The position numbers were made by a program, and so were the translations under genes. Shown here piece after piece: positions 40,754 through 62,485 of a stretch of 64,000 bases of DNA. Below the pieces are notes generated by a model. The model was not told where the DNA came from. It worked only from the letters and a program-made list of their open reading frames with translations, and made no database searches. The DNA is from a virus (lineage: Duplodnaviria; Caudoviricetes), in IMG/VR virus record IMGVR_UViG_3300030419_006251, positions 128,001 through 192,000 of that record; one strand, written 5' to 3'. Each line of letters opens with the position of its first letter. Within the stretch, counting starts at the first letter, position 1.

Positions 40754-40884
40754 GCCCATAGTGGGTGTATTACTCGCTCCAACACCATACTATCCCCTCT
40801 TTAATTTACCTTTTTAAAGCTCACCTCCCTAAAGGTCCGGCTCGTTAGAGGCATAGAACCGCAACTACCATTTGCACTATGGAC
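40754..40884 (-). ncRNA. Candidate structured RNA A (131 nt, multibranch with pseudoknot)
   Basis: Closing stem GTCCATAGTG/CACTATGGGC and internal stems CGGTTC/GAGCCG, ACCTTT/AAAGGT, GGTGT/ACACC. Two G:U pairs favour the minus strand. Confidence 0.6.
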
Positions 40885-41249
40885 TATTTTATTTTTAAAT
40901 CAGTAAAATATTCCTCAGTCTCATATTTTTTCTGCAATAAGTAAAGTGTTTTAAGATCGATTCCTAGAAACAATGCTGCTTCTTTTTTTGTACTGCATGC
41001 ACTTAAAGCATACTTAAAAGTTGCATCTTTAGCAATGTCTGTTAAAGAATTCCACAAAGGAATTCCGTATAATTTACCACCAGCTGCCTTGGCTGCTAGT
41101 TCTAATTTGAGACCTATAATTTCTTCTAAGCTCAAATTATTAAGCATAATTTCAAATTCAGTATTACTTTTTTTTGATTTCCTAAGCTTCGAAGCTATAC
41201 TATAGTTTGTATTAGCTCCTTTTCTTTTATTTTTTCTTTTAAAGCTCAT
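40884..41249 (-). CDS. Hypothetical protein with Fis-like HTH C-terminus
   Basis: TKKEAALFLGIDLKTLY. Confidence 0.55.
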   Translation of the reverse strand: MSFKRKNKRKGANTNYSIASKLRKSKKSNTEFEIMLNNLSLEEIIGLKLELAAKAAGGKLYGIPLWNSLTDIAKDATFKYALSACSTKKEAALFLGIDLKTLYLLQKKYETEEYFTDLKIK

Positions 41250-41311
41250 AATGCCACCTACCCACCCAGATTATCATATAAGTTAAGATCATTTAAGAAT
41301 TATTTAATTAT

Positions 41312-42220
41312 TTACAACCCCGGAGGCGGCGGAAGAGGTGGCATGCCTTCTTCTTCGGGCGGAGGCTCTAATCCTGGGGGCGCTTCTAAGCCCGGCGGAG
41401 GTGGAAGCTCATCTTCCATGGGAGGCCCACCAGCGCCAAGTCCAGCCTGTTCTTCATACGAAGGAGTTGTCGGTTCTTCCGGATTGCCCATTTCTTCTTC
41501 AAATGCATCAAAATGTAGTTTTAAGTTTGTAATTAAATATTCGTAGAATAGTTCTGCATCTTCTCCGCGCAAATCTTTATAAGCATTTTTAATTGTAGAG
41601 TCCGGACCATTAAAAGCTGCTTGCGCGCGCAAAGCTCCAGTTTCTTGATCATCAGTCAGATCACCTTCTAGACCACGGCGAAACTCCGCCTTTTCAGCCT
41701 CTAAAGTATCTTCTTCTGTAGGTTTCTTGCTTTTTCCGCGCACATCTATAAAGCGAGGATCCTCTTGAGGTGCACCAGTAGGTTCACCAATATCAAGTTC
41801 CAGTTGTTCACTAACCGGCACTTCTTCATTTTCTGGAGGCGCTTGCAACAAAGTTTCACTGTTTCCTGCGTCAGCTGAAGCTTTTAATGGTTTAATCAAA
41901 TTTTCAACTGCATTTAGAATGTGTACACGAAATGAGTCTCTTTGTTCACGACTAGAAGTTAATTTTTTATAATATGTTTCAAATATTTCTACAATATTGT
42001 CTAAAACTTCTTCTAAAATATTTATACCAGTGGCTCTACTTGGATCACCCACTGCTTCCATTTCATCTTGCTCAGATATTAATTGGCGAATTACTAATCT
42101 TAATTGCTCTTCTTCTCGTTGCTCTGTGAGTTTTTTCTTTGCCTTAACAACTTTGATAATTTTTCTAATCTGTTCTCTAAGGTGCAGTTCTTCTAGAAAT
42201 TGTTCTCGTTTGATGATCAT
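41312..42220 (-). CDS. Acidic putative internal head protein with Pro-rich tail
   Basis: LxE motifs, LRLVIRQLISE, C-terminal poly-Pro. Confidence 0.5.
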   Translation of the reverse strand: MIIKREQFLEELHLREQIRKIIKVVKAKKKLTEQREEEQLRLVIRQLISEQDEMEAVGDPSRATGINILEEVLDNIVEIFETYYKKLTSSREQRDSFRVHILNAVENLIKPLKASADAGNSETLLQAPPENEEVPVSEQLELDIGEPTGAPQEDPRFIDVRGKSKKPTEEDTLEAEKAEFRRGLEGDLTDDQETGALRAQAAFNGPDSTIKNAYKDLRGEDAELFYEYLITNLKLHFDAFEEEMGNPEEPTTPSYEEQAGLGAGGPPMEDELPPPPGLEAPPGLEPPPEEEGMPPLPPPPGL

Positions 42221-42243
42221 TTTAGTACCTCATTTATAAATAG

Positions 42244-44634
42244 TTATCTAGCAATCGTTTGTAAAAAATAATTTAATATTTCCTCAGTCAAGTCTTCTCT
42301 AAAAATTGTAGGCTCTTCGTCTTCGTCGTCCTCATCTCGCTTAGCAGAACCTACATAACCTTGAACAGCTCCTCCGCCAGCAGATGATATCTCATTTACA
42401 GCATCTGCTTGACCTTGTTGAAATTCTTTGTTTTTCTTTTCTTTTGCCTCTGCTTCCATAGCTTGTGCTAATTGTTTTTGAAACTGACCTAATGGTTCCA
42501 TAGTTCTAGCGGTAGCTTGTTGAGCGACTCCTCCTACAATTTCTCCGGTCTGTCCGGTAAGATTGTCAACAAATCCTCTTCCCATATCAGAAAACATTGG
42601 CGCTAATTGATCCATCAACTCTTTTGGTATATTACTCAATCCGCCTTCAATATTTTGTAAGATTTCCGGAAATTGCCCGGCCACATTACCTGCAGGACTT
42701 CGAGGATCTCCAAGTGCTTCTACAACCATCTCATATAAAGTATCAGAATTTCTTCTACCCGGGGCTTGAGACACACCTAGTGTTTGTAATATTTTATTAA
42801 CACTTCCGTAGCTTTTTTCCGGAATAAATTTGGTGATGTCCAACCCTTGTTCTATAGCTTCTCTAAAAGTGGTGGCACTCATTGGCTTTTGTGTATCAGG
42901 ATCTATAATGTTTGGAACTGGATCTACTTCCAAATCAACGCCTTCGGGCTTATATTGTTCAGCTTGACCTCTAAAGCGATTTCCATCCTTGGCTCCAGCT
43001 ACCATATTAACCCTTTGTCCGGGTTTTGCATTTTGTAAAATATCATATGCAATGTGCATAGGGTTTCCGCCCGGCGGTGCTTGCAAAATATAAAAATTCA
43101 CTCCGGCATCATTAGCATAAATTTCCCATATTTTCGCAGCAGTATCAAAGTCAATAGGTACATCGTTTATACTTCGCGGCCTAGTTTTTGCTGCGCCACC
43201 CATAATAACAATTGGGAACTCAACTTCGGAAGCCATTGTTTCGGCAGCTTGGAAATGTCCTTTATGTGGAGGCTTAAATCCTCCGGGAAACACACCAATT
43301 GATTCATAACCAGATAAAAGTTCGTACAGATCTGCTGGAGATGGCGAATCAACCATTTTAACGCCCTCAGACAGCTGCTGACTGCCTTGTGACATAATTG
43401 CCGGGGCTGTACCCCGACCATACTTGAAGAGGCCTAGAAGCTGGTTTATGGGCGCAAAATTGCCTGTGAACTTATACATTTGATCGCCTAGTTGAAATAC
43501 AAATCCTTCGACTGTTGTATTAATATTATCGTGGCTCTTGAGTTTTTTAAGTTGTTTCTTTAATACTTCATGTGCCTCTTCTGCGCCGGGCCCGCCATAT
43601 CTAGAAATTTGTTCTATTGCATTTTGAACCTCTTTTCTTAATCTTTGCAATTCGGCTTTGTTATCTAAAATATATGCACTTTCCATTCCCTTGAGCATCT
43701 CTACGGAAAAATCGTGAATTGCATCTTCGATTGGAAATATAATTTTACTTAGTATTTTTGATCCGTCCTTGATTATATCGCGAATCGAAGTTTTTTCTTC
43801 GTCTCTCATTCCTTGATAAATCAATCTTAAATTTTTTGCTCCCGGAAGATTTAAGATTTTATCTTTTATATCTTTTTGGGTCTGCGCGCCAAAATAAGAC
43901 ATTTCGCTTCTTAAAAATTCTTCTAATCCTTTCTCTAAATAATTTCCGATAGTCATTGAACCGGAAAAGCCAGCATCTTTTAATTTTTCAATTGCCTCTT
44001 CATACGGCCTATCATCACTTAAGGCCTGTAATTGCATCACCGCAGTTCGTCTAACAGAAAAATCTGTACCACTGCCAGACTCTTCAAATCGATTTAAAAG
44101 TGCGTCTAACATTCTAGAATTTTGTTCTGCGTCAACTACTTCTACTTTATTTGTATCTGGTATATATCTTTTGTGGCCACCGTGATGAATCGATAGTACA
44201 TTTGCATCATAATTAACAACATTAGAAGCCCCTGGTCCTTGAATTTCTGTGTTATAAAATATTTCGCCATTTTGACCAAAAACAGCTGCTTGTTCTTCTG
44301 GCCTCATTGAATCGATCGCCTTTTGAAAAGAACGAAAAGCTCGAAGATAAACATCCTTAATTGCATCTCCGCCGGCGAACTGCCTCATTTTTAAATCGCG
44401 AATTGTCCGACCGCCGGCAGCCATATCACCTTTATTTCTAGCATATAGAGCTAATCCTCCACGAGAGCCGAGATAAATATTGAAACCATCAGTTTTTTCA
44501 GTACCTACCAACTTACCGCCAGCAGCTTTTCTCAAAATAGAGCTAATTTCATTAAATGTTAATTCTCTATTATCATACAAGTGAGATAAGTGGCCGGCCA
44601 CGCCGCCCTCTAATAACAAATAAAGCTTTTTCAT
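42244..44634 (-). CDS. RNA-ligase-like (KxDG) domain fused to an HxGH nucleotidyltransferase
   Basis: EKTDG (motif I), NTEI, VEGFVF (IV), MYKF (V); then PGGFKPPHKGH and MSATTFRE. Confidence 0.7.
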   Translation of the reverse strand: MKKLYLLLEGGVAGHLSHLYDNRELTFNEISSILRKAAGGKLVGTEKTDGFNIYLGSRGGLALYARNKGDMAAGGRTIRDLKMRQFAGGDAIKDVYLRAFRSFQKAIDSMRPEEQAAVFGQNGEIFYNTEIQGPGASNVVNYDANVLSIHHGGHKRYIPDTNKVEVVDAEQNSRMLDALLNRFEESGSGTDFSVRRTAVMQLQALSDDRPYEEAIEKLKDAGFSGSMTIGNYLEKGLEEFLRSEMSYFGAQTQKDIKDKILNLPGAKNLRLIYQGMRDEEKTSIRDIIKDGSKILSKIIFPIEDAIHDFSVEMLKGMESAYILDNKAELQRLRKEVQNAIEQISRYGGPGAEEAHEVLKKQLKKLKSHDNINTTVEGFVFQLGDQMYKFTGNFAPINQLLGLFKYGRGTAPAIMSQGSQQLSEGVKMVDSPSPADLYELLSGYESIGVFPGGFKPPHKGHFQAAETMASEVEFPIVIMGGAAKTRPRSINDVPIDFDTAAKIWEIYANDAGVNFYILQAPPGGNPMHIAYDILQNAKPGQRVNMVAGAKDGNRFRGQAEQYKPEGVDLEVDPVPNIIDPDTQKPMSATTFREAIEQGLDITKFIPEKSYGSVNKILQTLGVSQAPGRRNSDTLYEMVVEALGDPRSPAGNVAGQFPEILQNIEGGLSNIPKELMDQLAPMFSDMGRGFVDNLTGQTGEIVGGVAQQATARTMEPLGQFQKQLAQAMEAEAKEKKNKEFQQGQADAVNEISSAGGGAVQGYVGSAKRDEDDEDEEPTIFREDLTEEILNYFLQTIAR

Positions 44635-44888
44635 TTTTGCTTAGATTCCTCTAAAACTTTTACTTGCTCCTCTAATACTCTAACTTGTTCTTCGAGCTTT
44701 TTAGTGCGTCTTTTAATTTCCTTTAATTGACTTTTTGCAATTTCTACTCTTCTTTGTCCTGTCTGAGTTTTAGGATTTAATTTAGATAATGTCTCTCCAA
44801 GAGCTTGAATATAACTATGTACACTAGGAGACTTGTCTTCTCCTAAAAGAAATCTTCTTGTAATAAAGTTTAATTTACTGTAATTCAT
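44631..44888 (-). CDS. Small coiled-coil protein
   Basis: Heptad repeats with LEE motifs. Confidence 0.55.
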   Translation of the reverse strand: MNYSKLNFITRRFLLGEDKSPSVHSYIQALGETLSKLNPKTQTGQRRVEIAKSQLKEIKRRTKKLEEQVRVLEEQVKVLEESKQK

Positions 44889-44892
44889 TTTT

Positions 44893-45441
44893 TTATCCTA
44901 TGTGTGTTTTATAAGCTTTTGGATTAATTCTTAATCTTATGCCTTTTGTGGCGTAGCTAAACGGTACGCCTCTTCTAGAACCTCCCGCAAATTCAGTTGT
45001 CAAAGTATTACTAGTAACTCCATTCCAATGAGAATAGTTATTATATGAAATTGTTGTATTTCCGACAATACCAATAACATCAGAAGTTAAAGTTAGTGTT
45101 GCGCTTGATTGTGTTGCGGTAATTGATAAAGAAGAAGCATTAATTTTAGCTGCAAGATCAGTAGCGGTGCCTGTACCGCCGCCACCGCTAGCAGCAATAT
45201 TATTAACAGCAATATTGCCGCTCGTTACTCCATTGTTCTCGTTATCGATCTCGAATGTAGCTGAAGTTCCATCAGAATCAACTAGCGTGATTGTAGAGGC
45301 ATCGTTTGGCGTATCCGTAAATGTAATAACAGCTGTTGCTTTCCCAGTATAACCCGACGCAAATTCAAAGTCTTGTGACAATCGTTCGTAATGGTTCATT
45401 ACAAAATTATCTTCATAATAGTGTTTCTTCTTATATGCCAT
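44893..45441 (-). CDS. Putative virion structural protein (Ser/Thr-rich beta domain)
   Basis: KATAVITFTDTPNDASTITLVDSDG..., typical of phage structural beta-sandwich modules. Probable start at 45441. Confidence 0.45.
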   Translation of the reverse strand: MAYKKKHYYEDNFVMNHYERLSQDFEFASGYTGKATAVITFTDTPNDASTITLVDSDGTSATFEIDNENNGVTSGNIAVNNIAASGGGGTGTATDLAAKINASSLSITATQSSATLTLTSDVIGIVGNTTISYNNYSHWNGVTSNTLTTEFAGGSRRGVPFSYATKGIRLRINPKAYKTHIG

Positions 45442-45634
45442 ATTATCTCCTAAAATCGCTAGATTCACATTTATGTATAGTTATTTTTTTTGGTATACAT
45501 GCCCATAACCCACAAGACAATTTTTCAAGCATAAAATTATATGCTAAATTTTTATTTTTAAATGGTGTGTAATTTCTTTCTCCCATTGTATTTTTCCAAA
45601 CGACATAAGTCTCTTTCATACTTCATGTTATCCT

Positions 45635-46423
45635 CTACTTGGTCCATTTACGAACTAGTCTCTCATAAAGACCTTTTTCATACCACTCTTTGTCTGATAA
45701 ATTTTCATCTATTCCGGTGTCCAAGGTTCCTAGCTCCCAGCCGAGTTCCTCTTCTCCAGGTGAAGCAGACGGAGGGGCAACTATTCCAGTGTCCAAGGTT
45801 CCTGGCTCCCAGCCGAGTTCCTCTTCTTTGCCCCAGGGCGCACGCCCACTCGGCGGAGCAGCCGGCGTAGCCGTTTCCGGAGGGCGAACCTCCGGCGGAG
45901 GGCTCGTAACCAATCCTCGTCTGTCAGCTTCGCGCTGCAGCGCGTTTTCAGCTTCGTCTTCAACCTGCAATATGCGTAAGAGGTCCTCATCGCTCATCAT
46001 AGCAATAGCGGCGCCTTCGCCCACGGACTTTCCTGCTTTTGCCAAAGCGCCTCCGCCGGCGGCAATCAACGGCTCTAATACCGCATCGAGCCATGATTGA
46101 TCGTCAGAAGGATCGTCAGAAGCTCTCGACGCCAAGTGTGCGGCTCCTCCATCAGATTGTGACTCTTGTTGTTCTCTCAAAACATCGTTAATTATTTGTC
46201 TAATAAGAGCTTCTGGAAGAGCTTCCGATTCCGGATAAGCCGCTTCATCCGCATCACCGTCGCGATTCGCCGGCGACAGAGTTGACTCCATTTTTTTAGC
46301 CAGCGTTTCTGCTCGTTCGTCTCGATTTGCAGGGCTTGGTAAATCTCCGCGCATTCCCCAACCTTCGTTTAGTTGTCTCCTGATTATCGATTCAATTTGT
46401 TTTCTTGTTAATTTTTTAGACAT
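45635..46423 (-). CDS. Acidic putative internal head protein with an internal duplication
   Basis: IESIIRRQLNE motif; EELGWExGTLDTGI twice. Confidence 0.55.
   Translation of the reverse strand: MSKKLTRKQIESIIRRQLNEGWGMRGDLPSPANRDERAETLAKKMESTLSPANRDGDADEAAYPESEALPEALIRQIINDVLREQQESQSDGGAAHLASRASDDPSDDQSWLDAVLEPLIAAGGGALAKAGKSVGEGAAIAMMSDEDLLRILQVEDEAENALQREADRRGLVTSPPPEVRPPETATPAAPPSGRAPWGKEEELGWEPGTLDTGIVAPPSASPGEEELGWELGTLDTGIDENLSDKEWYEKGLYERLVRKWTK
45709..45827. repeat. 47-bp direct repeat, 72-bp period, in frame
   Basis: 45709-45755 and 45781-45827 differ at 2 positions. Confidence 0.9.
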
Positions 46424-46424
46424 A

Positions 46425-49400
46425 TTATTTTGCTCCTTTTAATTTTGCTATAATTTGTTCTCGAATAACGCTCTCAAGATTAGTTCTCGATAATCTAATG
46501 GACTTTCCAACGAAAGCTTTATTAACTTGTTCTATAATTAGTTGTTTGATCGGGTCTTCGCTATAAATTCGATTATAATTTCTATTTTCGCGTAGATCTC
46601 TCTTCGGTACACCAGACTGGCCAGTAGTTCCGGTACGATTTTCTTCTGGTCTCATAAATCTAATCTCTGGAGGTTCTGTAAGATTCCATGCTTCTATAAG
46701 AGCGTTAAGAGATCTTTGCCATTCGCCCGACTCACTATCAAAGAAAGAATCTGGAATTCCACCGGTTGCACCCCTAACTCCAGTGGCCGAAGCCATAAGA
46801 TCTCCTGGGAAGACATTGATCACATTCGTGTGTGGATTATAAAATCCAATTTGCACAACATCGCCAATAACCAGACCCTGGGGACCAGTGTCTTGAATAT
46901 AGAATTTGGTTCGATCGCGTGTCCCTCCTTGTTCAATTTCCCACCGAAACATATTAGCATCTGAAGCAAAGGTCTCCGCCAAAGCAGCCTGCGCTGCCGA
47001 ATCAACTTCAGTTTGTGCGTTTAATGACCCAACGACATTACCTTGTGTATTTGTATATCGAGGATTGACGCTGGAAGTTTCCGGATTACCTTCAGAAGCA
47101 GCTTCAGAGTTATTGGCTAACCAATCTTCTAGCGATATGCCGGCCCGAGATGCCCTGTATCTTTCAACAGAATCCGGTGCTTCTGGATTTCCTCCAACAA
47201 CGACATATCGTCTACCCCGGCTTTCTGCTCCAGGTCCATACCACACATCATTAATTGGTACAGTTTCTGGCTGTTGGCCTCTGAGGTGTGCGGGAATACG
47301 CTCTCGACGCATTGAACCATCAGCTTGAGTAACAAGCCTATACTCTCCTTCTTGTGAGCCTATAAGTGGCGCGCCTGGAGTTCCTCCGCCTTGAGCCATA
47401 CGAGTAATATCTTCACCAGTTTGAGAACTAGGCAACTGTGCCCACATTGCTGCAACTATTGCTTCGGCCGGCGAGGGCATATCTTCAAGACCTTCTATAT
47501 TTCCAATAAGTGGTCTTGCGTCACGCAAGCTTTCTGTTGCATATAATAGTTCTGGTGCATACTGTAACATCCAGCGCTGAGTCTCCGCGTCTGCTCCTCT
47601 TTTAGGATCCCACCAACCTCGATAGAAAGTTGCAGCAATATCGTCTCCAAATTTTCCATGAAGCATATCTTTTCTTCTGCCGTGTACCGCCTGATCCTCT
47701 AATACTTGTGAGTAACCATCCCAAAGTACTTTTTCGTCTTCAGTGGCTACATAATTATACCAATAAGAGATAAAATCTGATGCATTTCCAATTGGGTCTA
47801 AGCCTCCAAGAGCCATTTCAACGCTGGTCATAGGAATGTTTTCTCCTTCTGGTATCGTATCTGATCCTAAAGTAAACAAAGGTTGATCACCGTATTTTGT
47901 TTGCAAGCCGGCAGCATAATTTTCGCCTGAACCACCATGTAATTCAATAGATTCGTCATATATGCTGATCATCTCTTCATCAGATGCCATAGGTCCTCGG
48001 CGTACCGGCTGTGAAGATGCATCAGCCCTGAATTCAGTCGGCCCTCCGAGACCCATAAGATCCATCACGCCGGCTCCAATAGTAGGAATCATTCCCACAT
48101 CACCGCCGGCATTGTGATAAAGAATCGTGTAATGTTCACCTTGGCGAAGAGTTCGAACCTGCAAGGCAGTCTGAGCTATATCAATATCTGCCACACCATC
48201 ACCGTCATGATCATCTGGTAATAGGCCAGCCTCTTGCCATCGTCTTAACATATTGAGCCTAAATTCCATTTGGGTTGCAATACCCTCTTCACCCAAAACT
48301 CCAGCGCCAGGATCTCCAATTGCAGACATCATAATCGTCTCATATAGACTACGGCCGGCATGCTTAACCATATCTGCATCAACCAAACCGATGCCTTGTA
48401 TCTCTACAACATTCGTCGGCGCAGCAGCAATGCCAGTTTCCGGATCTACTTCCCCGGGTGCCGGCGCCCATGGCCTCTCTCGATTCTCCGGGTCTGACTC
48501 ATCTAAAGACCAGGAACTTAATAAGCTAGTACTGTAGGCTGTCGCACGATCGGGATCTAACATATCTCCCCGGGGAGTGAAGTTAGCTACAAATTCAAAA
48601 ACAATATCTCTGTAGCTATTAAGTTGTTCATGATTCTCTCTTCCTTGATTAAAAAATCCCAAATGATGGCCAATATGAGCAGTAGTTCTACCCTCACTAT
48701 AAACTCCACCATAATCAATCAAATACTGTGTAGTAGAAATGGGCTGAGCTTCCCCTGTTTCCGGATCAACATCATAATGATCTCTATAGAGAACCATATC
48801 ACCCATAATATCAACAAATCCGGCGCCTAATTCTGTTTCAGATAAAGCTGTAAAATATTCTTGTTCAAATTCACTAGCATGCTCAGGCGGCCTAAGAATG
48901 TCTTCTGGCATAAAAGGACGATACATCGGTTCGTTTGGTGTATCTGGATTACCGTCTGTATCAACTCCTTCTGGTGCCGCATCGTTTGCGATACATCCAA
49001 CGGATTCGGGAGTCGACAGACCCATATTACTCATCGCTAGCGAACAAGCATCGTTTAGATCAGCAACAGTTCTACTCTCCCCTGCCAACTCTCTAGCGGT
49101 AGCAGATTTCATTAATAATAGCTGATTCATTCTGTGAAGCATTTCAACTCTTTCAAATTCTTCGGCACGGCTTTCTATTAAATTTGCGCTTGGATCTGCA
49201 GATCCAATAACTTCTGTATTGATAATTCTTCTAAGCGCCGGCCCGTATCTTGGGTCCTCAGAAGCACTGGTTAAGAGTTCTGTGTTTTCTAAAATTTGTG
49301 CGTCATCTAAATCGCTTAGATCTTCTGCTTGATATAGACCACTTTGAACAGCATATGTGCGTAATTGATTAGTGAACTCTCTTCTTTGTTCAGTTATGGT

Positions 49401-55307: not shown

Positions 55308-55340
55308 TGAATAGTATGCCTCCGTTGCATATAATTAGTT

Positions 55341-55795: not shown

Positions 55796-55816
55796 AAGTA
55801 ACTATAACGCTAAGCA

Positions 55817-56080
55817 TCAAATATCATATTTCTGCGCATTTTTCTGTGCAGCCTTAGCCACCAAGTCTAGCGAATGATCTGCATACCAGTGTTGGCCAAC
55901 CTTATCCATTCGCTGAATCAGATATAGTTCATGCGCGAAATAGCTATGCGTATGTGGCGGGTCTGGCCTCTCTATTATGCGCAATACTATACCTAGGCCG
56001 GCATCCTTAACAATATCACCATCGGCATAATAGTCAAACCACTTAACCAAATCGCCTACATCTACCTTCTCACTCTGCAT
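55817..56080 (-). CDS. Small SH3-like hypothetical protein
   Basis: VDVGDLVKW...GIVL; promoter TTGTAA-17-TATATT at 56118-56090. Confidence 0.6.
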   Translation of the reverse strand: MQSEKVDVGDLVKWFDYYADGDIVKDAGLGIVLRIIERPDPPHTHSYFAHELYLIQRMDKVGQHWYADHSLDLVAKAAQKNAQKYDI

Positions 56081-56112
56081 ATCACCTACAATATAACATA
56101 TTATTCATATCT

Positions 56113-56445
56113 TTACAATTTTTTCTGGGAATTTTTTGGCAACTTGGCCCTCGACAATAACTTAAGTTCTTTACGAAGGTATAGCCCGGGCTTTATATCT
56201 CTATCTAACCACTTCACTTTAAGATATATGTTATTCCTAACCTCGATTACTATACCTGCACCATCTATAATCCTTAAGTCTTCCGGAATCGGATCGACAT
56301 ACTGCACTAAATCGCCTACTCTAATCAGTTCAAGCTGCACTTCCGGTTCTTTTACTTTCACTCTTTTAATTAGCGAGAATGTAAAAATCTGGAAAAATGG
56401 CTTAGGGATCGCGAATGTATCTGCGCGCAGCTTAAGAATCCCCAA
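56113..56445 (-). CDS. Small SH3-like hypothetical protein
   Basis: IRVGDLVQY...GIVIEV; true start uncertain. Confidence 0.5.
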   Translation of the reverse strand: MGILKLRADTFAIPKPFFQIFTFSLIKRVKVKEPEVQLELIRVGDLVQYVDPIPEDLRIIDGAGIVIEVRNNIYLKVKWLDRDIKPGLYLRKELKLLSRAKLPKNSQKKL

Positions 56446-56459
56446 TGATTCCGCGGACT

Positions 56460-57035
56460 TAGATTCCCCGGAGGGGGAGGGGGGGTACCTGGTAAGTGCT
56501 TGTTATTGCTTGGGTTTTGTGTAGCATATACATTGTTATACGGTGTTAAATGTATGTCAAGTCTTTGTTAGTACTGTGTAGTATATTCTTTTACTTGTTC
56601 TTTACATTTATTCTTTTATTACCCTCGTTAAATGTTTCACTCCTCCGTAACACAGGTTATACCTGCCATATGCTGTCGCATGTATCACATACTGTAGCAT
56701 ATATTCTTTTATACCCCTCGGCGTATACCTTTTGATACGGTAGATGCGCCGCGTATACTTTATGATACGGTGGCTTGTAGCATGTGTCGCATGTATTTGT
56801 TACACTGATGCATTTATTACCCTCGCTCATATTGGGCTTGTAACCTGCGTTATCGTGTCGCATAAATATACATTAAATGTTACACCGTATACTTTATGAT
56901 ACGGACAATAAATGACTTGACAAGCAAGGCGTATATGTACTAGTTCCTTCCCCTGGTTTGCTCCCTTCTCATTAAATGTTAATACATGTATACAATGTTG
57001 CAACTATTATACGATCAGATGGTAGTACCCCTAAG
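56460..57035. repeat. Non-coding region with several interspersed short repeat families
   Basis: (C/G)CGTAT-N8-ATACGG x3, TTA(T)TAC(C)CCTCG x3, TGTCGCAT x3, TTAAATGT x4; G-run at ~56471-56485. Confidence 0.7.
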
Positions 57036-57039
57036 ACAT

Positions 57040-57318
57040 TTATACTTCATGTAGTACGGCACTGAGGGATTGCATTAAAGCTACTGCAAGTTGTTCACTC
57101 TCTGTAGACAATGTAGACAATCCTGTTACACTTTTATTATCATTGGCCTCGGTGGTTTTCCGTTGCAACTCATTGAGCCCGTTAGCTAGTGTCACAAAGG
57201 TGGCAGACAAAGCGAGGTTGTCACCGAATGCCATGGCTCTGCAAGTGTGTCGCTCAAAGAGTGTAACATTATTTATAACTGGAATACCCTTGATCATATC
57301 CTCTTCTGTGTAATACAT
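57040..57318 (-). CDS. Hypothetical protein
   Basis: RBS-like AGGAGAG upstream; 92 aa. Confidence 0.45.
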   Translation of the reverse strand: MYYTEEDMIKGIPVINNVTLFERHTCRAMAFGDNLALSATFVTLANGLNELQRKTTEANDNKSVTGLSTLSTESEQLAVALMQSLSAVLHEV

Positions 57319-57693
57319 TTACTTTATTCTCTCCTTTATACCCTCGATGTGTTTGCATTTACGACGATAGCTATACCCAATGCAAGTACAACTGAAAAAA
57401 ATCTGGCGCGAATCGCTCTGATACTCGGTCACGATATATTCACTCCCTCTCGACCCCATCACCTTCCACTCTCGACCCTCGCGCGGGGCGGCTGGCTGCT
57501 TCTCTCGGCGCTTCACCACCATGTATCGGGGCAAGTCCTCAAAGGTGGTGCTCGGAGGCACTGAGAGCCATTCTGAGCCGCTGACTGCATAAGTGCCTGA
57601 TGGTAGTCTCGTGATGCACGGAGGCCAGTCAACCTCGATGGGGCTGACCGGCGGAGTGTGCAAAGGTTTATTATCAATCGCAGTCAATGGCAA
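57319..57693 (-). CDS. SWIM zinc-finger protein
   Basis: FSCTCIGYSYRRKCKHI (CxC-x7-CxH). Confidence 0.72.
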   Translation of the reverse strand: MPLTAIDNKPLHTPPVSPIEVDWPPCITRLPSGTYAVSGSEWLSVPPSTTFEDLPRYMVVKRREKQPAAPREGREWKVMGSRGSEYIVTEYQSDSRQIFFSCTCIGYSYRRKCKHIEGIKERIK

Positions 57694-58918
57694 TAATCCT
57701 CTCGTTGGTCTGGAAGTACGGACGCTGGGCGTAATACTTAGTCGTCATCCACATACGCTGACACTTGGATGGAATGGGCTTGGGAGCCATGAGATCCGTC
57801 AGGACGATGTGACCGTCGAACCCGTGATCGTTGACATACTTGGTCGGAGGGTTGAAGTCGGTGCCGCCGTAGCGCACACGGACCCACTTGCGCTTCTCGT
57901 TACGCTTCCACACATGAATAAAATCTTCTGCAACCTCGGTATCAAAGGGGATTACCGTGAACTCAGCTAGCTCGGCCAGCTTGTTCAACTCAGAGAAGAA
58001 CGCGGCCAGCATGCCATCATCAACAGAACCGGACTGATCGATGCTGATCGCGATACGAGCTTGACGACGGACCTTAGAGCCTGCATGGATGTAGGGGTAA
58101 CGCTTATTCAGGCGCTTCACCGTGCGAGTCTTGTTGGACCGTTGAGAGGTTTTAATGAAGTACCGCAGCACTTTGCGCCAATCAACCTTAGAGGCGATAC
58201 GGTCAAGGATGTCGCGACGGCACTCACCAGACACGGAACCCCAGCTATTGGCCTTCTGAGCCTCTTCTGCAGCCTTCTTGACTGATTCCTTTAGACGCTC
58301 CTTCGCGATGTCCTGAGCGGCCCCCTGGCCCTCGCCCCAGCCACTATGATCATCAAAGCTGTCGCCAAGCTGATCGGATGGGTCGCCGGATCCTCCACCT
58401 TCGCCGTCGCCCTGCTGTTCGTCCTGCTCTTCCTGCTTCTTCTTGAGAGCAGCAAAATAATGCTCCGCGCTCTTGCCCTTTTCCATATCCGCAAATGGGC
58501 CCTCACCGGGCATGCAGCACTGTTCGGGCAACTCGCCGACAAGGTGAGAGTTGATCGCAAGATCCGTGGCGATGTTCCACATTTTAGACATGCCACCATC
58601 GGGCAAACGACCAGTGACATGCTCAAAGACAAGATGATAGAACTCATGCTTGAGCACTCCAGCACGCTGGACATCTGGCAGCTTCGCAAAGAAGGCCGGA
58701 TTGTAGAGCATTTCAAAGTGACCATCATCAGTCACGCGAACACCAGCAGTCGGGATCGCGCCCGATGCCTTCTTGTTGATGCGTCGAGAGAGGGCCGCAA
58801 AGAACGGCTCGTCAACGAGTAGACGCGCGGTGTGACGATTCAAGTCAAACTCTGCCACTGCAGCGGCTAGCTCCTCGGGAGTCATTTCGGGCGCGGGGGA
58901 TGAAACGGGCTGGGTCAT
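57674..58918 (-). CDS. DUF2201-type zincin metallopeptidase + vWA-like protein
   Basis: IPTAGV, LKHEFYHL (HExxH), WNIATDLAIN, acidic Gly linker, IDQSGS (MIDAS DxSxS), GGTDF, LTD. Confidence 0.88.
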   Translation of the reverse strand: MTQPVSSPAPEMTPEELAAAVAEFDLNRHTARLLVDEPFFAALSRRINKKASGAIPTAGVRVTDDGHFEMLYNPAFFAKLPDVQRAGVLKHEFYHLVFEHVTGRLPDGGMSKMWNIATDLAINSHLVGELPEQCCMPGEGPFADMEKGKSAEHYFAALKKKQEEQDEQQGDGEGGGSGDPSDQLGDSFDDHSGWGEGQGAAQDIAKERLKESVKKAAEEAQKANSWGSVSGECRRDILDRIASKVDWRKVLRYFIKTSQRSNKTRTVKRLNKRYPYIHAGSKVRRQARIAISIDQSGSVDDGMLAAFFSELNKLAELAEFTVIPFDTEVAEDFIHVWKRNEKRKWVRVRYGGTDFNPPTKYVNDHGFDGHIVLTDLMAPKPIPSKCQRMWMTTKYYAQRPYFQTNERIIAIDCD

Positions 58919-58941
58919 AGAAATCTCCTTGCTATACTATA

Positions 58942-58996
58942 AATATAGCATGGTGAGGCGAAAAGGTCAAGGCTCAAGCTGTCAAGAGAATGTCAA
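58942..58996 (-). promoter_or_regulatory. Early-type promoter 1 with an upstream 11-bp direct repeat
   Basis: TTGACA-5-TTGACA-9-TTGACC-17-TATATT. Confidence 0.85.
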
Positions 58997-59295
58997 ATGT
59001 CCTCTTCACACGCTCTCGCCTCCTTATCAAGCTCTGCGAGGTCTTCAGCGACATCGGCGACGGTCATGGGCCGGTCCTTTCGTCGCTTGGCAGCTTCTCG
59101 ATCCAACCTCCCCCATCGACGCGATCCGTTTGGATGCTCGCACAAGTGGAGATCGGTGATTCCAAGGGCTGTGTAGCGTTTCAGGGCCGTCTGAGTGGCT
59201 CGGAGGGTGTCGGGACGGGTTAGCACTGTCTCGTACCCTGAGAGCCGTCCTGCGGCGTCTAAGTTGACATGCGTGCGGCTGATATAGTATTTCAC
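58993..59295 (-). CDS. Hypothetical protein
   Basis: Probable GTG start at 59295, overlapping the stop of an upstream small ORF. Confidence 0.5.
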   Translation of the reverse strand: MKYYISRTHVNLDAAGRLSGYETVLTRPDTLRATQTALKRYTALGITDLHLCEHPNGSRRWGRLDREAAKRRKDRPMTVADVAEDLAELDKEARACEEDI

Positions 59296-59387
59296 TATCG
59301 GCCCTCGTAGAAAGCGCAGACGGGGATCCCGACGAGTGCGGTGCTCCAAAGAGCGATGATGATGGATGATGCGATGATTGCTGTCAT
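59295..59387 (-). CDS. 30-aa hydrophobic peptide
   Basis: RBS AGGAGG; MTAIIASSIIIALWSTALVGIPVCAFYEGR*. Confidence 0.5.
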   Translation of the reverse strand: MTAIIASSIIIALWSTALVGIPVCAFYEGR

Positions 59388-59424
59388 GATATGCCTCCTA
59401 TGGCGATTGAGTAAAGGTTTAATA

Positions 59425-59500
59425 TGGTGGGCCCTGTCGGATTTGAACCGACGACTATCCCGTTATGAGCGGGGCGCTCTTACCACTGAACTAAAGGCCC
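59425..59500 (-). tRNA. tRNA with CAU anticodon (probably Ile2, lysidine type; Met not excluded)
   Basis: GGGCCTT/AGGGCCC acceptor stem, loop CTCATAA, CCA. Lacks the initiator GGG/CCC anticodon stem; resembles ileX-type tRNAs. Confidence 0.88.
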
Positions 59501-59504
59501 GGAA

Positions 59505-59580
59505 TGGTGGGTCAACTGGGACTCGAACCCAGAACCTACGGCTTAAAAGGCCGGTGCTCTACCCGTTGAGCTATTGACCC
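59505..59580 (-). tRNA. tRNA-Lys(UUU)
   Basis: Canonical cloverleaf, loop CTTTTAA, CCA. Confidence 0.95.
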
Positions 59581-59582
59581 GA

Positions 59583-59668
59583 TGGTAGCTGCGGCGGGAG
59601 TCGAACCCGCATGCTCATTGGAGCGAGAGATTTTAAGTCTCTTGTGTCTACCGTTCCACCACGCAGCC
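59583..59668 (-). tRNA. tRNA-Leu(UAA)
   Basis: Class II cloverleaf, loop CTTAAAA, long variable arm, CCA. Confidence 0.95.
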
Positions 59669-59677
59669 AAGGTTTAT

Positions 59678-60745
59678 TTACTGCTGGGACTCTCCAGTCA
59701 ATAGTTCGACAAGATAGCCACTGACGGATGTACCATCTGCGGCAGAGGACTGGTGAAGCTCAACAGTATTCTGGATCTCACCGTTGCCCAGAACAACCCA
59801 CAGCTTCATGGCTACCTCGGATGGCAGCGTGACGAAATAGTTAGCAAGGTTCTGTACCTGCTCGGCGGGCAGAGCCTCTGCGAAAGCTGCGGTAGCCTCC
59901 ATCTTCTCGACTAGTGCGCTGTGATCGTTGATCGTGAAATCACTGGTGCGGTCAATCTCACCCTTGACCAAAATATCCTCGACCGTCACCTGACGGGAAT
60001 AGTTGGTGAAGAAGTCCTGCAGTGCAACGGCAGCTTCAAAGCCAACAAACGCTGCAGCGAGGTTAAAGATCGTACCCGCGTCTGCGTCCTCACCAAGGAG
60101 ATCCGCGCCGGTCGCTGCCTGATTCAGGCGATCCCAGGAACGACGAGAAGGGTATACCTTGTTCGGCTCAAAATCGCCGGTGTGCTCAAGGTGATTACGG
60201 TTCTGATTGATGAAATCCCAGACCAGACCATCAACCTCGGTCTTGGCCCAATCAAGCCAGTCCTCGTGGGAAGGCTCGACATCGAAGACCGTGTAGCGGT
60301 CAAGCTCCGCAGGATCCATTTCGCCGACCTGATACTGTGCGCCGTGCTCGCCACCGTTGACGGCTGCGACAATGATGGTGTCAGCGTGGAGGCTGAAACC
60401 GGCCAGCTTGCGACTGTCGGTCAACTCAAAGATGCCTTGACGGACCTCGGGAGTCGCACGGTCAACCTCATCGAGGAAGAGCACCACAGGCTCATCACAG
60501 GCAGTCTTGAACCACGCGGGCGGGTTCCAAGTGGTGACAGCACCGTCAGTGCTCGGAAGGCCAAGAAGATCGCCCTCAGTCATCTGAGAGGCGCGGCGCT
60601 CCACAACCGGGAGTCCGAGATCGCCCGCCAACTGGTAGACAACCTGAGATTTGCCCACACCGTGACGGCCACGGAGCAGCACGGGAAACCGTGCAGCGGT
60701 GACATGAGGGACGATAGCGCGAAAGGTCTTGAAATCAACTGCCAT
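59678..60745 (-). CDS. MoxR/AAA_5-family ATPase
   Basis: GRHGVGKS (Walker A), LFLDEVDR (Walker B), VAAVN, MDPAELDRY, PSRRSW. Confidence 0.9.
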   Translation of the reverse strand: MAVDFKTFRAIVPHVTAARFPVLLRGRHGVGKSQVVYQLAGDLGLPVVERRASQMTEGDLLGLPSTDGAVTTWNPPAWFKTACDEPVVLFLDEVDRATPEVRQGIFELTDSRKLAGFSLHADTIIVAAVNGGEHGAQYQVGEMDPAELDRYTVFDVEPSHEDWLDWAKTEVDGLVWDFINQNRNHLEHTGDFEPNKVYPSRRSWDRLNQAATGADLLGEDADAGTIFNLAAAFVGFEAAVALQDFFTNYSRQVTVEDILVKGEIDRTSDFTINDHSALVEKMEATAAFAEALPAEQVQNLANYFVTLPSEVAMKLWVVLGNGEIQNTVELHQSSAADGTSVSGYLVELLTGESQQ

Positions 60746-60796
60746 GATAGGACTCCTTAGTCGAGGGGGCGAGGGTTCATCCCTCGCTACATTATA

Positions 60797-60851
60797 AATA
60801 TAGCACAGTGGGGGGAAAAGGTCAAGGACATTCTTGTAAAGAGAATGTCAA
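60797..60851 (-). promoter_or_regulatory. Early-type promoter 2
   Basis: TTGACA-5-TTTACA-9-TTGACC-17-TATATT. Confidence 0.85.
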
Positions 60852-60859
60852 GAAGATGT

Positions 60860-61384
60860 TTAACTTACCAGCGTGAAGGCATCGGCCCGGTCGCTGATCT
60901 CAGAAATCGAGGTTGTAGGCGCGGTTTGAGAAGGCTTAAGAAGTTTAATCCTGAAGCCACCCCAGTCACCATCCCACATGAAGTGGTCGATCACCAGACC
61001 TTCGCCGTGATGCTGATGGCACACAAGCGATCCTATGCCGATGGGCTTGGGACGCTCAGAAATCAGTTCCATGGCCTCGCTGCGCTCGATAGGCTCACCG
61101 TCCAAGAAGACCGTATCGGAGGGCTCAGAAGGGCTCTCAGGGGCCTTAAACACAAAGTCATCCCAGTCGAGGACGAAATCAATCGCGTTGCAGGCTTCGT
61201 GACCAGCCTCGGTCAGATCCCATTCGGGCGGGTGGATGCTGGTTCGCACGGCAAGTCCAGCCAGCACGAGCATATCCAGATGAGCGCGATTCGGCTCAAG
61301 CTCGCCCATGTGCATAAGTGCGTGCCATTCGTCCTCGGTCAGCTTGAGGGCGCGAAGGTCAGAAGTGGTCGGGGTGTCAGTCAT
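60860..61384 (-). CDS. Hypothetical two-domain protein (wHTH-like + SH3-like)
   Basis: WDLTEAG wing-like motif, then IGIGSLVCH...GLVI. Confidence 0.55.
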   Translation of the reverse strand: MTDTPTTSDLRALKLTEDEWHALMHMGELEPNRAHLDMLVLAGLAVRTSIHPPEWDLTEAGHEACNAIDFVLDWDDFVFKAPESPSEPSDTVFLDGEPIERSEAMELISERPKPIGIGSLVCHQHHGEGLVIDHFMWDGDWGGFRIKLLKPSQTAPTTSISEISDRADAFTLVS

Positions 61385-61413
61385 CGGGTAGCTCCTTGCT
61401 CGATTACCCCTGT

Positions 61414-61468
61414 ATTATCTCACAGGGGAGAGGGAAAGTCAATAGAAAGTTTGTCAAGAGAATGTCAA
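61414..61468 (-). promoter_or_regulatory. Early-type promoter 3
   Basis: TTGACA-5-TTGACA-9-TTGACT-17-GATAAT. Confidence 0.82.
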
Positions 61469-61470
61469 GA

Positions 61471-62199
61471 CTACTCGTCACCCTGTTCACGCCAGAACCA
61501 GTAGTCGCGCTTTGCGCCCTTCTCAAAAATATCCACGCTGGCATAATCGAGGTTGGAAGCCGCTTCCCAGCCTGCTGGTGGCGTCGGCACAACATGGGCA
61601 CGACTCAGGATAGTCACCGTGTTCCATCGGCTGGAAGACTGCGTGACTTCGCTCGGGAACGAGAGCACACAAGGTTTATTATCCGTCACTCGACGCGCGA
61701 TGATGGCAGCGGGCCACTTGGCTTTGCGGTGAATCGTGTCCCACTTGATGCCCGTGACGATACACGGAGTCACCGTGCCATACTCATCATGCGACAGGAG
61801 AGTGCCGGGACCGACGCCATGTTCACGCATCGCATCCAACACGGTGCGTCGAGTCTCGACGGTCAGAGCAGCGTAACGCTCACGATCTGCCTTTTGCTGC
61901 GGGCATGTGCGTCGGTTATGTCCGTTCTCCCCGCAATAGCCGCACACGCGGCCTCCGTGGGTCGCTCGGCGACGGCGTTTGCTTTCGCCCGTGATTGGAT
62001 CTTCTCCGATGCGCTTGGCTAGCTTTTCGCGAGTGCGCTGATAGGTATAGTCGTCTTCTGGTCGGGATCCATTCTCGACCTCTTTCCGTAGTCGTTCAAA
62101 GCGGTGAGCCATTTGCTCCGTCAACTTCTCGCAGCTTGCGCGGTTGTGGCCTCGCTCGTAGCAGTGGCCGCATCGAATAGTTCCAGAATAGTTACCCAT
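61471..62199 (-). CDS. Double CCHC zinc-knuckle protein
   Basis: CGHCYERGHNRASC and CGYCGENGHNRRTC (Cx2Cx4Hx4C). Confidence 0.8.
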   Translation of the reverse strand: MGNYSGTIRCGHCYERGHNRASCEKLTEQMAHRFERLRKEVENGSRPEDDYTYQRTREKLAKRIGEDPITGESKRRRRATHGGRVCGYCGENGHNRRTCPQQKADRERYAALTVETRRTVLDAMREHGVGPGTLLSHDEYGTVTPCIVTGIKWDTIHRKAKWPAAIIARRVTDNKPCVLSFPSEVTQSSSRWNTVTILSRAHVVPTPPAGWEAASNLDYASVDIFEKGAKRDYWFWREQGDE

Positions 62200-62244
62200 G
62201 TAAAATCTCCAGTGTCAGAGGGTTCAACTCGTTCTTACCCTATA

Positions 62245-62299
62245 AATATAGCCGATATAAACGAGGAAGTCAAGGTTAAAGTTGTAAAGAGAATGTCAA
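62245..62299 (-). promoter_or_regulatory. Early-type promoter 4
   Basis: TTGACA-5-TTTACA-9-TTGACT-17-TATATT. Confidence 0.85.
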
Positions 62300-62309
62300 G
62301 AGAGGTTAA

Positions 62310-62485
62310 AGAGTGAGTCCGGTCGATGATCGCTGTCCTTGCCGCGTCTTCCTCACCAGCTTTGTTTTAACTCCCTCGCGGGTTCGCACGCGCATCTACC
62401 GTGTTCGGTGACTCTCGCCGTGCAGTGGGTTCATTCAAAGCGTTGAACCCCACCTTTAGTTTACTATTTCGACCGGACTCACTCT
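62310..62485 (-). ncRNA. Candidate structured RNA B (176 nt, closed by a perfect 17-bp inverted repeat)
   Basis: AGAGTGAGTCCGGTCGA (62310-62326) and TCGACCGGACTCACTCT (62469-62485); internal hairpins with GNRA loops (GGC-GAGA-GTC, CCC-GCGA-GGG). Confidence 0.65.

What the first reader, a model, noticed from the sequence alone, without database searches (positions are those of the whole stretch)
40754..62485. RNA A and RNA B look like two members of one unassigned pseudoknotted ncRNA family
Seen: both have a long terminal stem and an AAAT(G/A)GTA linker. Both then have a hairpin GGTTC-12 nt-GA(G/A)CC with aligned loops TATGCCTCTAAC versus AACGCTTTGAAT. In each, the loop centre is complementary to a downstream strand preceded by TTAAA: CCTCT:AGAGG in A, GCTTTG:CAAAGC in B. 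This is a compensatory change at several positions. They lie 21 kb apart in compartments of very different GC content. Inference: a conserved tertiary fold under selection (ribozyme, protein sponge or anti-defence RNA) present in divergent copies. Two sequences cannot prove covariation.
Basis: partly seen in the sequence, partly recalled or inferred. Interest (0 to 1): 0.78.

Follow-up and report, generated by a model that had tools for sequence, protein, structure and literature searches.

The report
Two-paralog pseudoknot RNA of marine phages
The two intergenic elements are real, related structured RNAs: diverged sister copies of a widespread pseudoknotted RNA family of uncultured marine T4-like phages that matches no Rfam family and usually sits between an early promoter and the phage's own tmRNA or tRNA genes; what it does is unknown.

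Summary
Both elements are at the stated coordinates on the minus (gene-sense) strand, and neither matches any Rfam 15 family.

**RNA A (40754-40884).**
- I found about 40 relatives in IMG/VR and metagenomes.
- They confirm a fold closed by stem P1, with hairpins P2, P3 (optional) and P4.
- Positions 4-9 of the invariant 12-nt P2 loop pair with a downstream strand (94% of cells paired, against 42-50% in slid controls).

**RNA B (62310-62485).**
- I found four relatives.
- P1 differs completely in sequence yet always pairs, and the pseudoknot covaries at four of six pairs.

**A and B are related.**
- Covariance models built from one type find the other at the right place.
- A B-type copy in another phage carries an A-like loop and scores with both models (60 and 27 bits).
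- In five phage genomes B lies 21-33 kb upstream of A on the same strand.

**New context.** A-type copies follow a conserved Fis-like helix-turn-helix (HTH) gene and usually lie 15-60 nt before a phage tmRNA or tRNA-Gly gene, often just after a consensus promoter.

**Function is untested.** My leading guess is a compact RNA cut out of the transcript at P1 that works through its fold. A cis-acting riboswitch-like leader is the main rival.

Earlier notes of this scan described A and B separately on this same DNA.

The parts
40754..40884 (-). RNA A, A-type family member (131 nt)
   Evidence: Scores 119 bits with model R1 and 88.5 bits with R3. Relatives in about 40 loci.
40875..40884 (-). A: P1 5' strand. 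Its first base is the last base of the HTH gene's stop codon.
   Evidence: Pairs with 40754-40763. P1 sequence differs among relatives but always pairs.
40754..40763 (-). A: P1 3' strand
40838..40861 (-). A: P2 hairpin. The stem is 40856-40861 with 40838-40843. The 12-nt loop L2 is 40844-40855.
   Evidence: Loop length is invariant. The UC/GA closing pairs never vary in 23 sequences, and the outer pairs covary.
40808..40836 (-). A: P3 hairpin (variable; absent in some relatives)
   Evidence: Compensatory changes. Missing in L080, L071 and L072.
40793..40798 (-). A: 3' strand of the pseudoknot (AGGGGA). It pairs with loop positions 4-9 at 40847-40852.
   Evidence: The pseudoknot was not part of the model, yet 90.6% of cells pair and 4 of 6 pairs change on both sides.
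40764..40786 (-). A: P4 hairpin. The 5-bp stem covaries and the loop is UGGAGCGAGUAAU.
   Evidence: 100% of cells paired, and all 5 pairs change on both sides.
62310..62485 (-). RNA B, B-type family member (176 nt)
   Evidence: Scores 159.9 bits with model R2. Relatives in four other phage records.
62469..62485 (-). B: P1 5' strand (17 bp, perfect)
   Evidence: The P1 sequences of B1 to B5 are unrelated to one another but all pair, 12-18 bp.
62310..62326 (-). B: P1 3' strand
62427..62450 (-). B: P2 hairpin. The stem is 62445-62450 with 62427-62432. The 12-nt loop is 62433-62444.
   Evidence: 100% of cells paired, and two pairs change on both sides.
62386..62423 (-). B: P3, a variable hairpin
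   Evidence: The closing pairs covary.
62373..62382 (-). B: P3b, CCC-GCGA-GGG, a tetraloop hairpin with no counterpart in A
   Evidence: Conserved in B1 to B4. The loop is GCGA, GAGA, GUGA or UACG.
62359..62364 (-). B: 3' strand of the pseudoknot (CAAAGC). It pairs with loop positions 4-9 at 62436-62441.
   Evidence: The five sequences read GCUUUG:CAAAGC, GCCUUG:CAAGGC, GUCUUG:CAAGAC, GUCUUU:AAAGGA and GAUUCU:AGAAUC.
62328..62348 (-). B: P4 hairpin (GACGC, GGCAAGGACA, GCG-A-UC)
   Evidence: The inner pairs never vary. The outer two pairs change on both sides in B4 and B5.
40884..41249 (-). Gene for a 121-aa Fis-like HTH protein, always directly upstream of A-type RNAs
   Evidence: Protein alignment A7. 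Weak HTH_8 matches. 161 relatives in IMG/VR.
39534..39869 (-). Phage tmRNA gene. It directly follows A-type RNAs in most relatives. Here an AhpC-like gene (40077-40736) and an 80-aa ORF lie in between.
62494..63327 (-). 277-aa ORF of no known family. B lies in its 3' untranslated region.
   Evidence: Promoter-like site at 63330-63358.
62245..62273 (-). Promoter-like site (TTGACT, 17 nt, TATATT) just downstream of B

Best explanation
**Shown.** A and B are diverged sister copies (two subtypes) of one RNA family of uncultured marine T4-like phages.
- Both fold into a compact unit closed by a terminal stem, P1.
- Inside is an A/U-rich joiner, then hairpin P2. The P2 loop is always 12 nt, and positions 4-9 of that loop pair with a strand that follows a UU(G/A)AA motif and precedes U(A/G)G.
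- Next come one or two variable hairpins, and a last hairpin, P4, that stacks on P1.
- A-type copies sit right after a Fis-like HTH gene and usually 15-60 nt before the phage's tmRNA or tRNA-Gly gene, often just after a consensus early promoter.
- B-type copies lie 21-33 kb upstream on the same strand, in the 3' untranslated region of another gene.

**Inferred (about 40% likely).**
- The unit is cut out of the longer transcript. Candidates are a double-strand nuclease acting on P1, and RNase P acting at the 5' end of the adjacent tmRNA or tRNA.
- It then persists as a stable small RNA.
- It would work through its tertiary fold, binding a protein of the translation or RNA-processing machinery, rather than through base pairing with a target. 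Nearly all conserved bases are tied up in the fold or its junctions.
For: **Structure.**
- A-type, 23 sequences: 94.4% of cells paired, against 42-50% with slid partners. 18 of 22 pairs change on both sides.
- B-type, 5 sequences: 96.6%, against 30-44%. 14 of 25 pairs change on both sides.
- 23 G-U cells in the A-type alignment would be A-C mismatches on the other strand. The structure therefore belongs to the gene-sense strand.

**Kinship of A and B.**
- The A model R1 ranks B1 and B3 second and third in 69 kb (13.2 and 12.7 bits).
- The B model R2 hits all eight A copies in 90 kb, best E 0.001.
- Over 80 HTH loci, 11 of R2's 13 best hits fall on A-type RNAs.
- The broad A model R3, built without any B, gives B3 22.2 bits and B2 18.1 bits.
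- A B-type copy in record G004 scores 60 bits with R2 and 27 bits with R3. It has an A-like loop, UAUGUCUUUAAC, and GGAUAG.
- The order B then A on one strand holds in G000, G001, G003, G004 and G008.

**Context.**
- tmRNA or tRNA-Gly lies 15-63 nt after P4 in 24 distinct loci.
- A promoter TTGACA, 17 nt, TAnnAT lies before P1 in L066, L092, L059, L061 and L056.

**Fits a free-standing RNA.**
- The element occurs as an operon leader and between two genes.
- It also occurs in a 3' untranslated region before a promoter.
- Elsewhere it lies directly before another ORF.
- In two contigs an intrinsic terminator follows it.
Against: - No expression data. Ends, stability and processing are all inferred.
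- No partner is known.
- The element is dispensable. Several relatives go straight from promoter to tmRNA (L040, L048, L050), and L007 goes straight from HTH gene to AhpC-like gene.
- Position just after a promoter and before genes is also what a riboswitch or attenuator looks like.
- P1 of A is only 10 bp, which is short for RNase III.
- Kinship of A and B rests on about 45 nt. B1 alone scores only 10.6-13.2 bits with A models, E 0.07-1.7, and the E-values are rough.
- The copies within each type are related to one another, so the many cross-hits are not independent.
Confidence: 0.5

Rival explanations
1. A cis-acting leader, either a riboswitch or a protein-controlled attenuator. A ligand or protein stabilises the pseudoknotted fold and P1. 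This changes how much transcription or processing proceeds into the tmRNA/tRNA genes, or into the next ORF.
For: - A-type copies sit right after a consensus promoter and right before the first gene of the unit.
- In the tRNA-Gly subtype the P1 3' strand is followed by a run of 6-20 U.
- In two metagenome contigs an intrinsic terminator follows the RNA.
- The fold has a conserved junction and pseudoknot core, variable outer stems and a closing P1. That is the usual anatomy of an aptamer.
- Precedent: related marine myophages carry a glutamine riboswitch beside their tmRNA gene, downstream of an early promoter (PMC9004378).
Against: - B1, B3 and B5 are followed by a promoter, not by a regulated gene.
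- Downstream genes vary: tmRNA, tRNA-Gly, an AhpC-like gene, a methyltransferase-like gene and ORFs of unknown function.
- I found no conserved alternative pairing that would serve as an expression platform.
- The U run does not always touch P1 (L062, L072).
- No known riboswitch model matches.
Confidence: 0.28
2. A self-cleaving ribozyme that helps process the transcript next to the stable-RNA genes.
For: - It has a compact pseudoknotted fold with conserved unpaired bases and variable outer stems.
- It lies in intergenic positions in phages and next to tRNA-type genes, which is where several self-cleaving classes were found (general knowledge).
Against: - No match to the hammerhead, twister, twister-sister, pistol, hatchet, HDV-like or glmS models at E up to 10.
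- By my own reading, the strand order differs from both pistol and HDV-like folds.
- No candidate cleavage site was identified.
Confidence: 0.08
3. A processive antitermination element. Like the put RNAs of phage HK022, it would act on the transcribing polymerase so that it reads through terminators or Rho sites in untranslated stable-RNA operons.
For: - There are two diverged copies per phage in separate early transcription units, as with putL and putR (general knowledge).
- A-type copies are close to the promoter and precede long untranslated genes.
- Terminators follow the RNA in L027 and L035.
Against: - There is no similarity to put or EAR.
- tmRNA and tRNA are highly structured and make poor Rho targets.
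- B is followed by a promoter, so read-through is not obviously needed.
Confidence: 0.06
4. A and B are unrelated structured RNAs that share a similar hairpin-pseudoknot module by chance or convergence.
For: - BLAST finds no similarity between A and B.
- B1 scores only 10.6-13.2 bits with A models.
- The 3' domains differ, and B has an extra hairpin.
Against: - The cross-hits are reciprocal and fall at the right places.
- The bridging copy L149 scores with both models.
- Both share the 12-nt loop, the pairing at loop positions 4-9, and the flanking UU(G/A)AA and U(A/G)G.
- The order B then A is conserved in five genomes.
- The composite motif occurs only at A and B in the genome.
Confidence: 0.08

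Closest known systems
Phage T4 species 1 and species 2 RNAs (rnaC, rnaD)
   Same: Small RNAs of unknown function encoded head to tail with the tRNA genes of a T4-type phage (annotation of NC_000866). They are presumably released by the same processing.
   Different: No sequence or structure similarity. The best R1 score in 8 kb around the T4 tRNA cluster is 6.4 bits, and it does not fall on rnaC or rnaD. rnaC ends in a tRNA-like T arm, which A and B lack.
Glutamine riboswitch (glnA RNA / glutamine-II) beside the tmRNA gene of Melnitz-like marine myophages
   Same: A small structured RNA next to a phage-encoded tmRNA gene, downstream of an early promoter, in marine T4-like phages (PMC9004378). 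Glutamine-II is built on a pseudoknot (PMC6698751).
   Different: No Rfam hit to glnA or Downstream-peptide at E up to 10. The conserved core differs. Here the RNA lies 5' of a one-piece tmRNA.
putL and putR antitermination RNAs of phage HK022
   Same: Two diverged copies of one structured RNA in two early transcription units of one phage (from general knowledge).
   Different: put RNAs are two plain stem-loops with no pseudoknot or closing stem. There is no similarity, and the function was not tested here.
Pistol self-cleaving ribozyme
   Same: A hairpin loop forms a 6-bp pseudoknot with a downstream strand, and there is an A-rich linker (PMC4604425 abstract, and general knowledge).
   Different: By my own reading the strands come in a different order, because here the closing stem lies outside the hairpin. 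No Rfam hit.
Unnamed candidate structured RNAs from IMG/VR (PMC10690425)
   Same: Same data source and the same kind of object. That paper lists 8,495 unnamed candidates from IMG/VR, so this motif may be among them.
   Different: The main text mentions no motif near tmRNA. I did not open the supplementary tables.

Membership tests
Any Rfam 15 family (4227 models) | Score at or above the family's gathering threshold, or at least E up to 10 in a small search | tested here: not met
   Only tRNA and tmRNA pass in the window. On A, B and three divergent A-type loci, only chance-level hits or hits on terminators appear.
Proposed A/B family (this report) | P2 hairpin with UC/GA closing pairs and a loop of exactly 12 nt | tested here: met
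   All 23 A-type and 5 B-type sequences.
Proposed A/B family (this report) | Loop positions 4-9 pair with a 6-mer that follows UU(G/A)AA and precedes U(A/G)G | tested here: met
   90.6% (A-type) and 96.7% (B-type) of cells paired. 4 of 6 pairs change on both sides in each type.
Proposed A/B family (this report) | Closing stem P1 formed by the two ends, free to vary in sequence | tested here: met
   Duplex of 8-15 bp starting directly after P4 in nearly all A-type loci. 12-18 bp in B1 to B5.
Proposed A/B family (this report) | Models of one subtype detect the other | tested here: met
   Scores for B1 alone are marginal.
Glutamine riboswitch (glnA, RF01739; Downstream-peptide, RF01704) | Match to the covariance model, with the conserved CGUUC ... 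GGAAGUAGG ... GGAACG core | tested here: not met
   No hit at E up to 10. The core sequence from PMC6698751 is not present.
Known self-cleaving ribozyme classes in Rfam | Match to the class model | tested here: not met
   No hit. Cleavage itself cannot be tested with these tools.
T4 rnaC / rnaD | Sequence or structure similarity to the T4 genes | tested here: not met
   R1 finds nothing on rnaC or rnaD.
tmRNA (RF00023) | The element is part of the tmRNA gene | tested here: not met
   The tmRNA model is matched end to end at 39534-39869 without A. A-type RNAs end 15-63 nt before the tmRNA 5' end.

The most novel reading that the evidence does not exclude
The family is a new class of riboswitch or ribozyme that gates or processes the phage's own tmRNA/tRNA operon. 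The B-type copy would be a second sensor or processor elsewhere in the early region. This would tie the phage's supply of ribosome-rescue and tRNA functions to a cellular signal.
Probability: 0.3. Interest if true: 0.85.

Novelty: categorically new. Interest (0 to 1): 0.7.

Why it matters
- It is a widespread structured RNA with strong covariation, a pseudoknot and no match to any catalogued family. That makes it a ready candidate for structure determination and for ribozyme or ligand screens.
- Its fixed place in front of phage-encoded tmRNA and tRNA genes links it to an open question: why large marine phages carry their own ribosome-rescue RNA, and how they control it.
- Two long-diverged sister copies per genome, with a shared 5' module and different 3' domains, give a natural experiment. 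The comparison can show which part of the fold does what.
- It also recalls the 50-year-old puzzle of the T4 species 1 and 2 RNAs, which are likewise encoded among the tRNA genes.

Tried and rejected
**Searches that found nothing useful.**
- Rfam at gathering and at E-value thresholds gave nothing.
- BLAST of both regions against 50,697 phage records matched only tRNAs.
- tblastn of the HTH protein against the same records found no match.
- Expression: no RNA holder listed for 39400-41300. I laid no reads.
- Papers: I found none describing a structured RNA 5' of phage tmRNA genes.

**Ideas tested and dropped.**
- T4 rnaC/rnaD as relatives: rejected.
- The proteins upstream of A and of B are unrelated (hhalign probability 0.1), so there is no shared protein-plus-RNA module.
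- The paralog of the 277-aa ORF has no RNA after it.
- A 14-codon ORF inside A (MVLERVIHPLWAQN): rejected. Its start is not conserved in other subtypes, and the apparent synonymous changes are compensatory changes in P4.
- The Shine-Dalgarno-like GGAGGUGA in A's P3 loop is not conserved (GGGGGUGA in A3; the loop is absent in L027).
- A boxA-like CUCUUUAAC after B1 is not conserved in B2 or B3.

**Chance pattern hits set aside.**
- lepA genes (L021, L024, L025, L034), plus L017, L036 and an Hsp20 gene in a bacterial genome (L118).
- That bacterial hit was the only one in 185,579 genomes for one subtype's pattern, so I saw no bacterial copy.

**Limits on where B-type copies were found.**
- No B-type copy at E up to 0.5 in five further large records. 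The tool warns that an empty answer shows little.
Full report
**1. What is in the window**

The window is bases 128001-192000 of a 200,760-bp IMG/VR virus record that CheckV rates complete. Earlier notes of this scan call it an uncultured marine T4-type phage. Genes around both elements run on the minus strand.

RNA A (40754-40884) lies between a 121-aa gene with a weak HTH match (40884-41249) and an AhpC-like gene (40077-40736). RNA B (62310-62485) lies after a 277-aa ORF of no known family (62494-63327). It is followed by a promoter-like site at 62245-62273.

GC is about 0.38-0.39 around A and 0.52-0.58 around B. No Rfam 15 family matches either element, even at E up to 10. On its own, A does not fold better than shuffled sequence (z -1.1). 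B does (z -3.8).

**2. RNA A is a member of a large family**

- A syntenic locus in a 205-kb relative holds a copy with compensatory changes in three stems. Another syntenic locus lacks the element.
- Pattern scans of IMG/VR and of metagenomes gave further copies. Three were divergent: L020, L027 and L028/L035. Chance hits in lepA genes were set aside.
- In every case the RNA directly follows a conserved gene of about 120 aa. Its C-terminal region matches the Fis-type HTH weakly.
- Using that protein as bait returned 161 relatives in IMG/VR, of which 80 loci were kept.
- A covariance model of eight A copies (R1) found an RNA just after the HTH gene in 34 of those loci (37 matches in all; 3 lay elsewhere and were left out as doubtful). 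Reading the gaps by eye added six more.
- On 23 clean sequences, 94.4% of cells pair, against 42-50% when partners are slid. 18 of 22 pairs change on both sides.

The pseudoknot was not part of the model, so its counts are unbiased: 90.6% of cells pair, and four of six pairs change on both sides. One position shows C-G, U-G, A-U, U-A and G-C.

P3 is optional, and the smallest copies are about 80 nt. P1 varies freely in sequence but forms in nearly every locus. Twenty-three G-U cells place the structure on the gene-sense strand.

**3. RNA B is also conserved**

Copies were found in four records:
- G001 (78% identical over the core), after the homolog of the 277-aa ORF;
- G003;
- G004;
- G008.

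The five P1 stems are unrelated in sequence, and all pair over 12-18 bp.

| Copy | Loop positions 4-9 | 3' strand |
|---|---|---|
| B1 | GCUUUG | CAAAGC |
| B2 | GCCUUG | CAAGGC |
| B3 | GUCUUG | CAAGAC |
| B4 | GUCUUU | AAAGGA |
| B5 | GAUUCU | AGAAUC |

Overall 96.6% of cells pair, against 30-44% in slid controls. 14 of 25 pairs change on both sides.

**4. Are A and B one family?**

BLAST sees no similarity between them, but structure-aware searches do.

| Model | Searched | Result |
|---|---|---|
| R1 (A only), filters off | 69 kb | B1 second (13.2 bits, E 0.073); B3 third (12.7 bits, E 0.099); B2 sixth (9.3 bits, E 0.64) |
| R2 (B only) | 90 kb | All eight A copies at the right place and strand, best E 0.001; one unrelated hit ranked among them |
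| R2 | 80 HTH loci (253 kb) | 11 of the 13 best hits fall on A-type RNAs, which occupy only a small fraction of the searched sequence |
| R3 (23 A-type, no B) | window plus two loci | B3 22.2 bits, B2 18.1 bits, B1 10.6 bits |
| R3 | whole records | B is the best non-A hit in G001 and G003 |

The strongest link is the B-type copy of G004. It scores 60 bits with the B model and 27 bits (E 0.002 for the genome) with the A-only model. It combines an A-like loop (UAUGUCUUUAAC) and GGAUAG with the B-type 3' domain.

Shared by both types:
- the UC/GA closing pairs of P2;
- the 12-nt loop, with G at position 4 invariant and A at position 2 nearly so;
- pairing at loop positions 4-9;
- UU(G/A)AA before the 3' strand and U(A/G)G after it;
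- a last hairpin next to P1.

Not shared:
- the sequence of the 3' domain;
- B's extra tetraloop hairpin;
- the AAAU(G/A)GUA linker, which is not conserved even within each type.

In G000, G001, G003, G004 and G008 the B copy lies 21.5-32.5 kb upstream of the A copy on the same strand. For G004 and G008 this assumes circular permutation. The duplication is therefore old.

A composite motif occurs only at A and B in the genome. I put kinship at about 0.85-0.9. The caveats are that the E-values are rough, that copies within a type are not independent, and that B1 alone is marginal.

**5.

- In most loci the A-type RNA ends 15-63 nt before a phage tmRNA gene, or 15-23 nt before tRNA-Gly(UCC).
- In this window an AhpC-like gene and an 80-aa ORF lie between A and the tmRNA (39534-39869).
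- Many loci have a consensus TTGACA, 17 nt, TAnnAT promoter between the HTH stop codon and P1.
- Loci without the RNA go from that promoter through a short leader (GUUCUUUAAAAUAU) to tmRNA.
- So the typical A-type copy is an optional first element of the stable-RNA operon.
- In the subtype of this window there is no such promoter, and P1 overlaps the HTH stop codon.
- B-type copies are followed by a promoter (B1, B3, B5) or directly by another ORF (B2).
- I found no copy in bacterial genomes with one subtype's pattern. The family looks phage-borne.

**6. How it may work**

Nothing here measures function.

The element occurs in many settings: operon leader, between genes, 3' untranslated region, and before a terminator. 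It is always a self-contained unit closed by P1, and almost all conserved bases are used in the fold.

This fits best with a compact RNA that is released from the transcript and acts through its shape. I put that at about 40%.

| Alternative | Estimate |
|---|---|
| cis-acting riboswitch-like leader | about 28% |
| self-cleaving ribozyme | about 8% |
| antitermination element | about 6% |

The riboswitch-like leader is helped by the promoter-proximal position, by the U run after P1 in the tRNA-Gly subtype, and by the published glutamine riboswitch beside tmRNA in Melnitz-like phages (PMC9004378).

**7. Known relatives and novelty**

- T4 rnaC and rnaD are the nearest analogues in genome position but are unrelated.
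- No known riboswitch or ribozyme model matches.
- The motif may be among 8,495 unnamed IMG/VR candidates of PMC10690425. I did not check its supplementary tables.
- I rate it a new RNA family of unknown function.

Noticed in passing
L037-L116 (80 IMG/VR loci); window 39534-41249: A conserved arrangement in this phage clade: a Fis-like HTH gene, a consensus early promoter, then tmRNA and/or tRNA genes. The order holds with or without the RNA in between.
   Followed up: partly
L045, L046, L047, L050, L053, L055 (just before the tmRNA 5' end): A recurring leader, (U)UGUUCUUUAAAAUAU, directly before the GGGGG start of phage tmRNA genes. It is present whether or not the A-type RNA is there, and it faintly resembles boxA.
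   Followed up: no
L092, L093, L094, L096, L098, L099, L100: The U run between P1 of the RNA and tRNA-Gly(UCC) varies from 6 to about 20 U among close relatives.
   Followed up: no
window 40814-40830: The P3 loop of A carries GGAGGUGA, a perfect match to the Shine-Dalgarno consensus. It is kept in the closest relatives, reads GGGGGUGA in G003, and is absent in other subtypes.
   Followed up: partly
window 61471-62199; L012:305 onward: The gene after B starts with a CCHC zinc-knuckle motif (MGNYSGTIRCGHCY...). It is conserved after B3 in G003, but a different ORF follows B2 in G001.
   Followed up: no
window 62305-62315: CACUCUUUAAC spans the end of B's P1 and resembles the boxA antitermination motif. 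It is not conserved in B2 or B3.
   Followed up: partly
window 62486-62500; L012:25-36: The AAUAAACCUU motif noted by earlier readers lies between the stop codon of the upstream ORF and P1 of B1 and B3. B2 has only AAAUAACC.
   Followed up: no
window 17782-17890 (-): The only unrelated hit that ranked among the A copies with the B model (10.3 bits, E 0.07). I did not inspect it.
   Followed up: no
L067, L068, L070: ARAGORN calls about 470-nt 'tmRNA' genes with odd tags (VDTKLGKDCYSKLNEL) after tRNA-Gly. These may be false calls or unusual forms.
   Followed up: no
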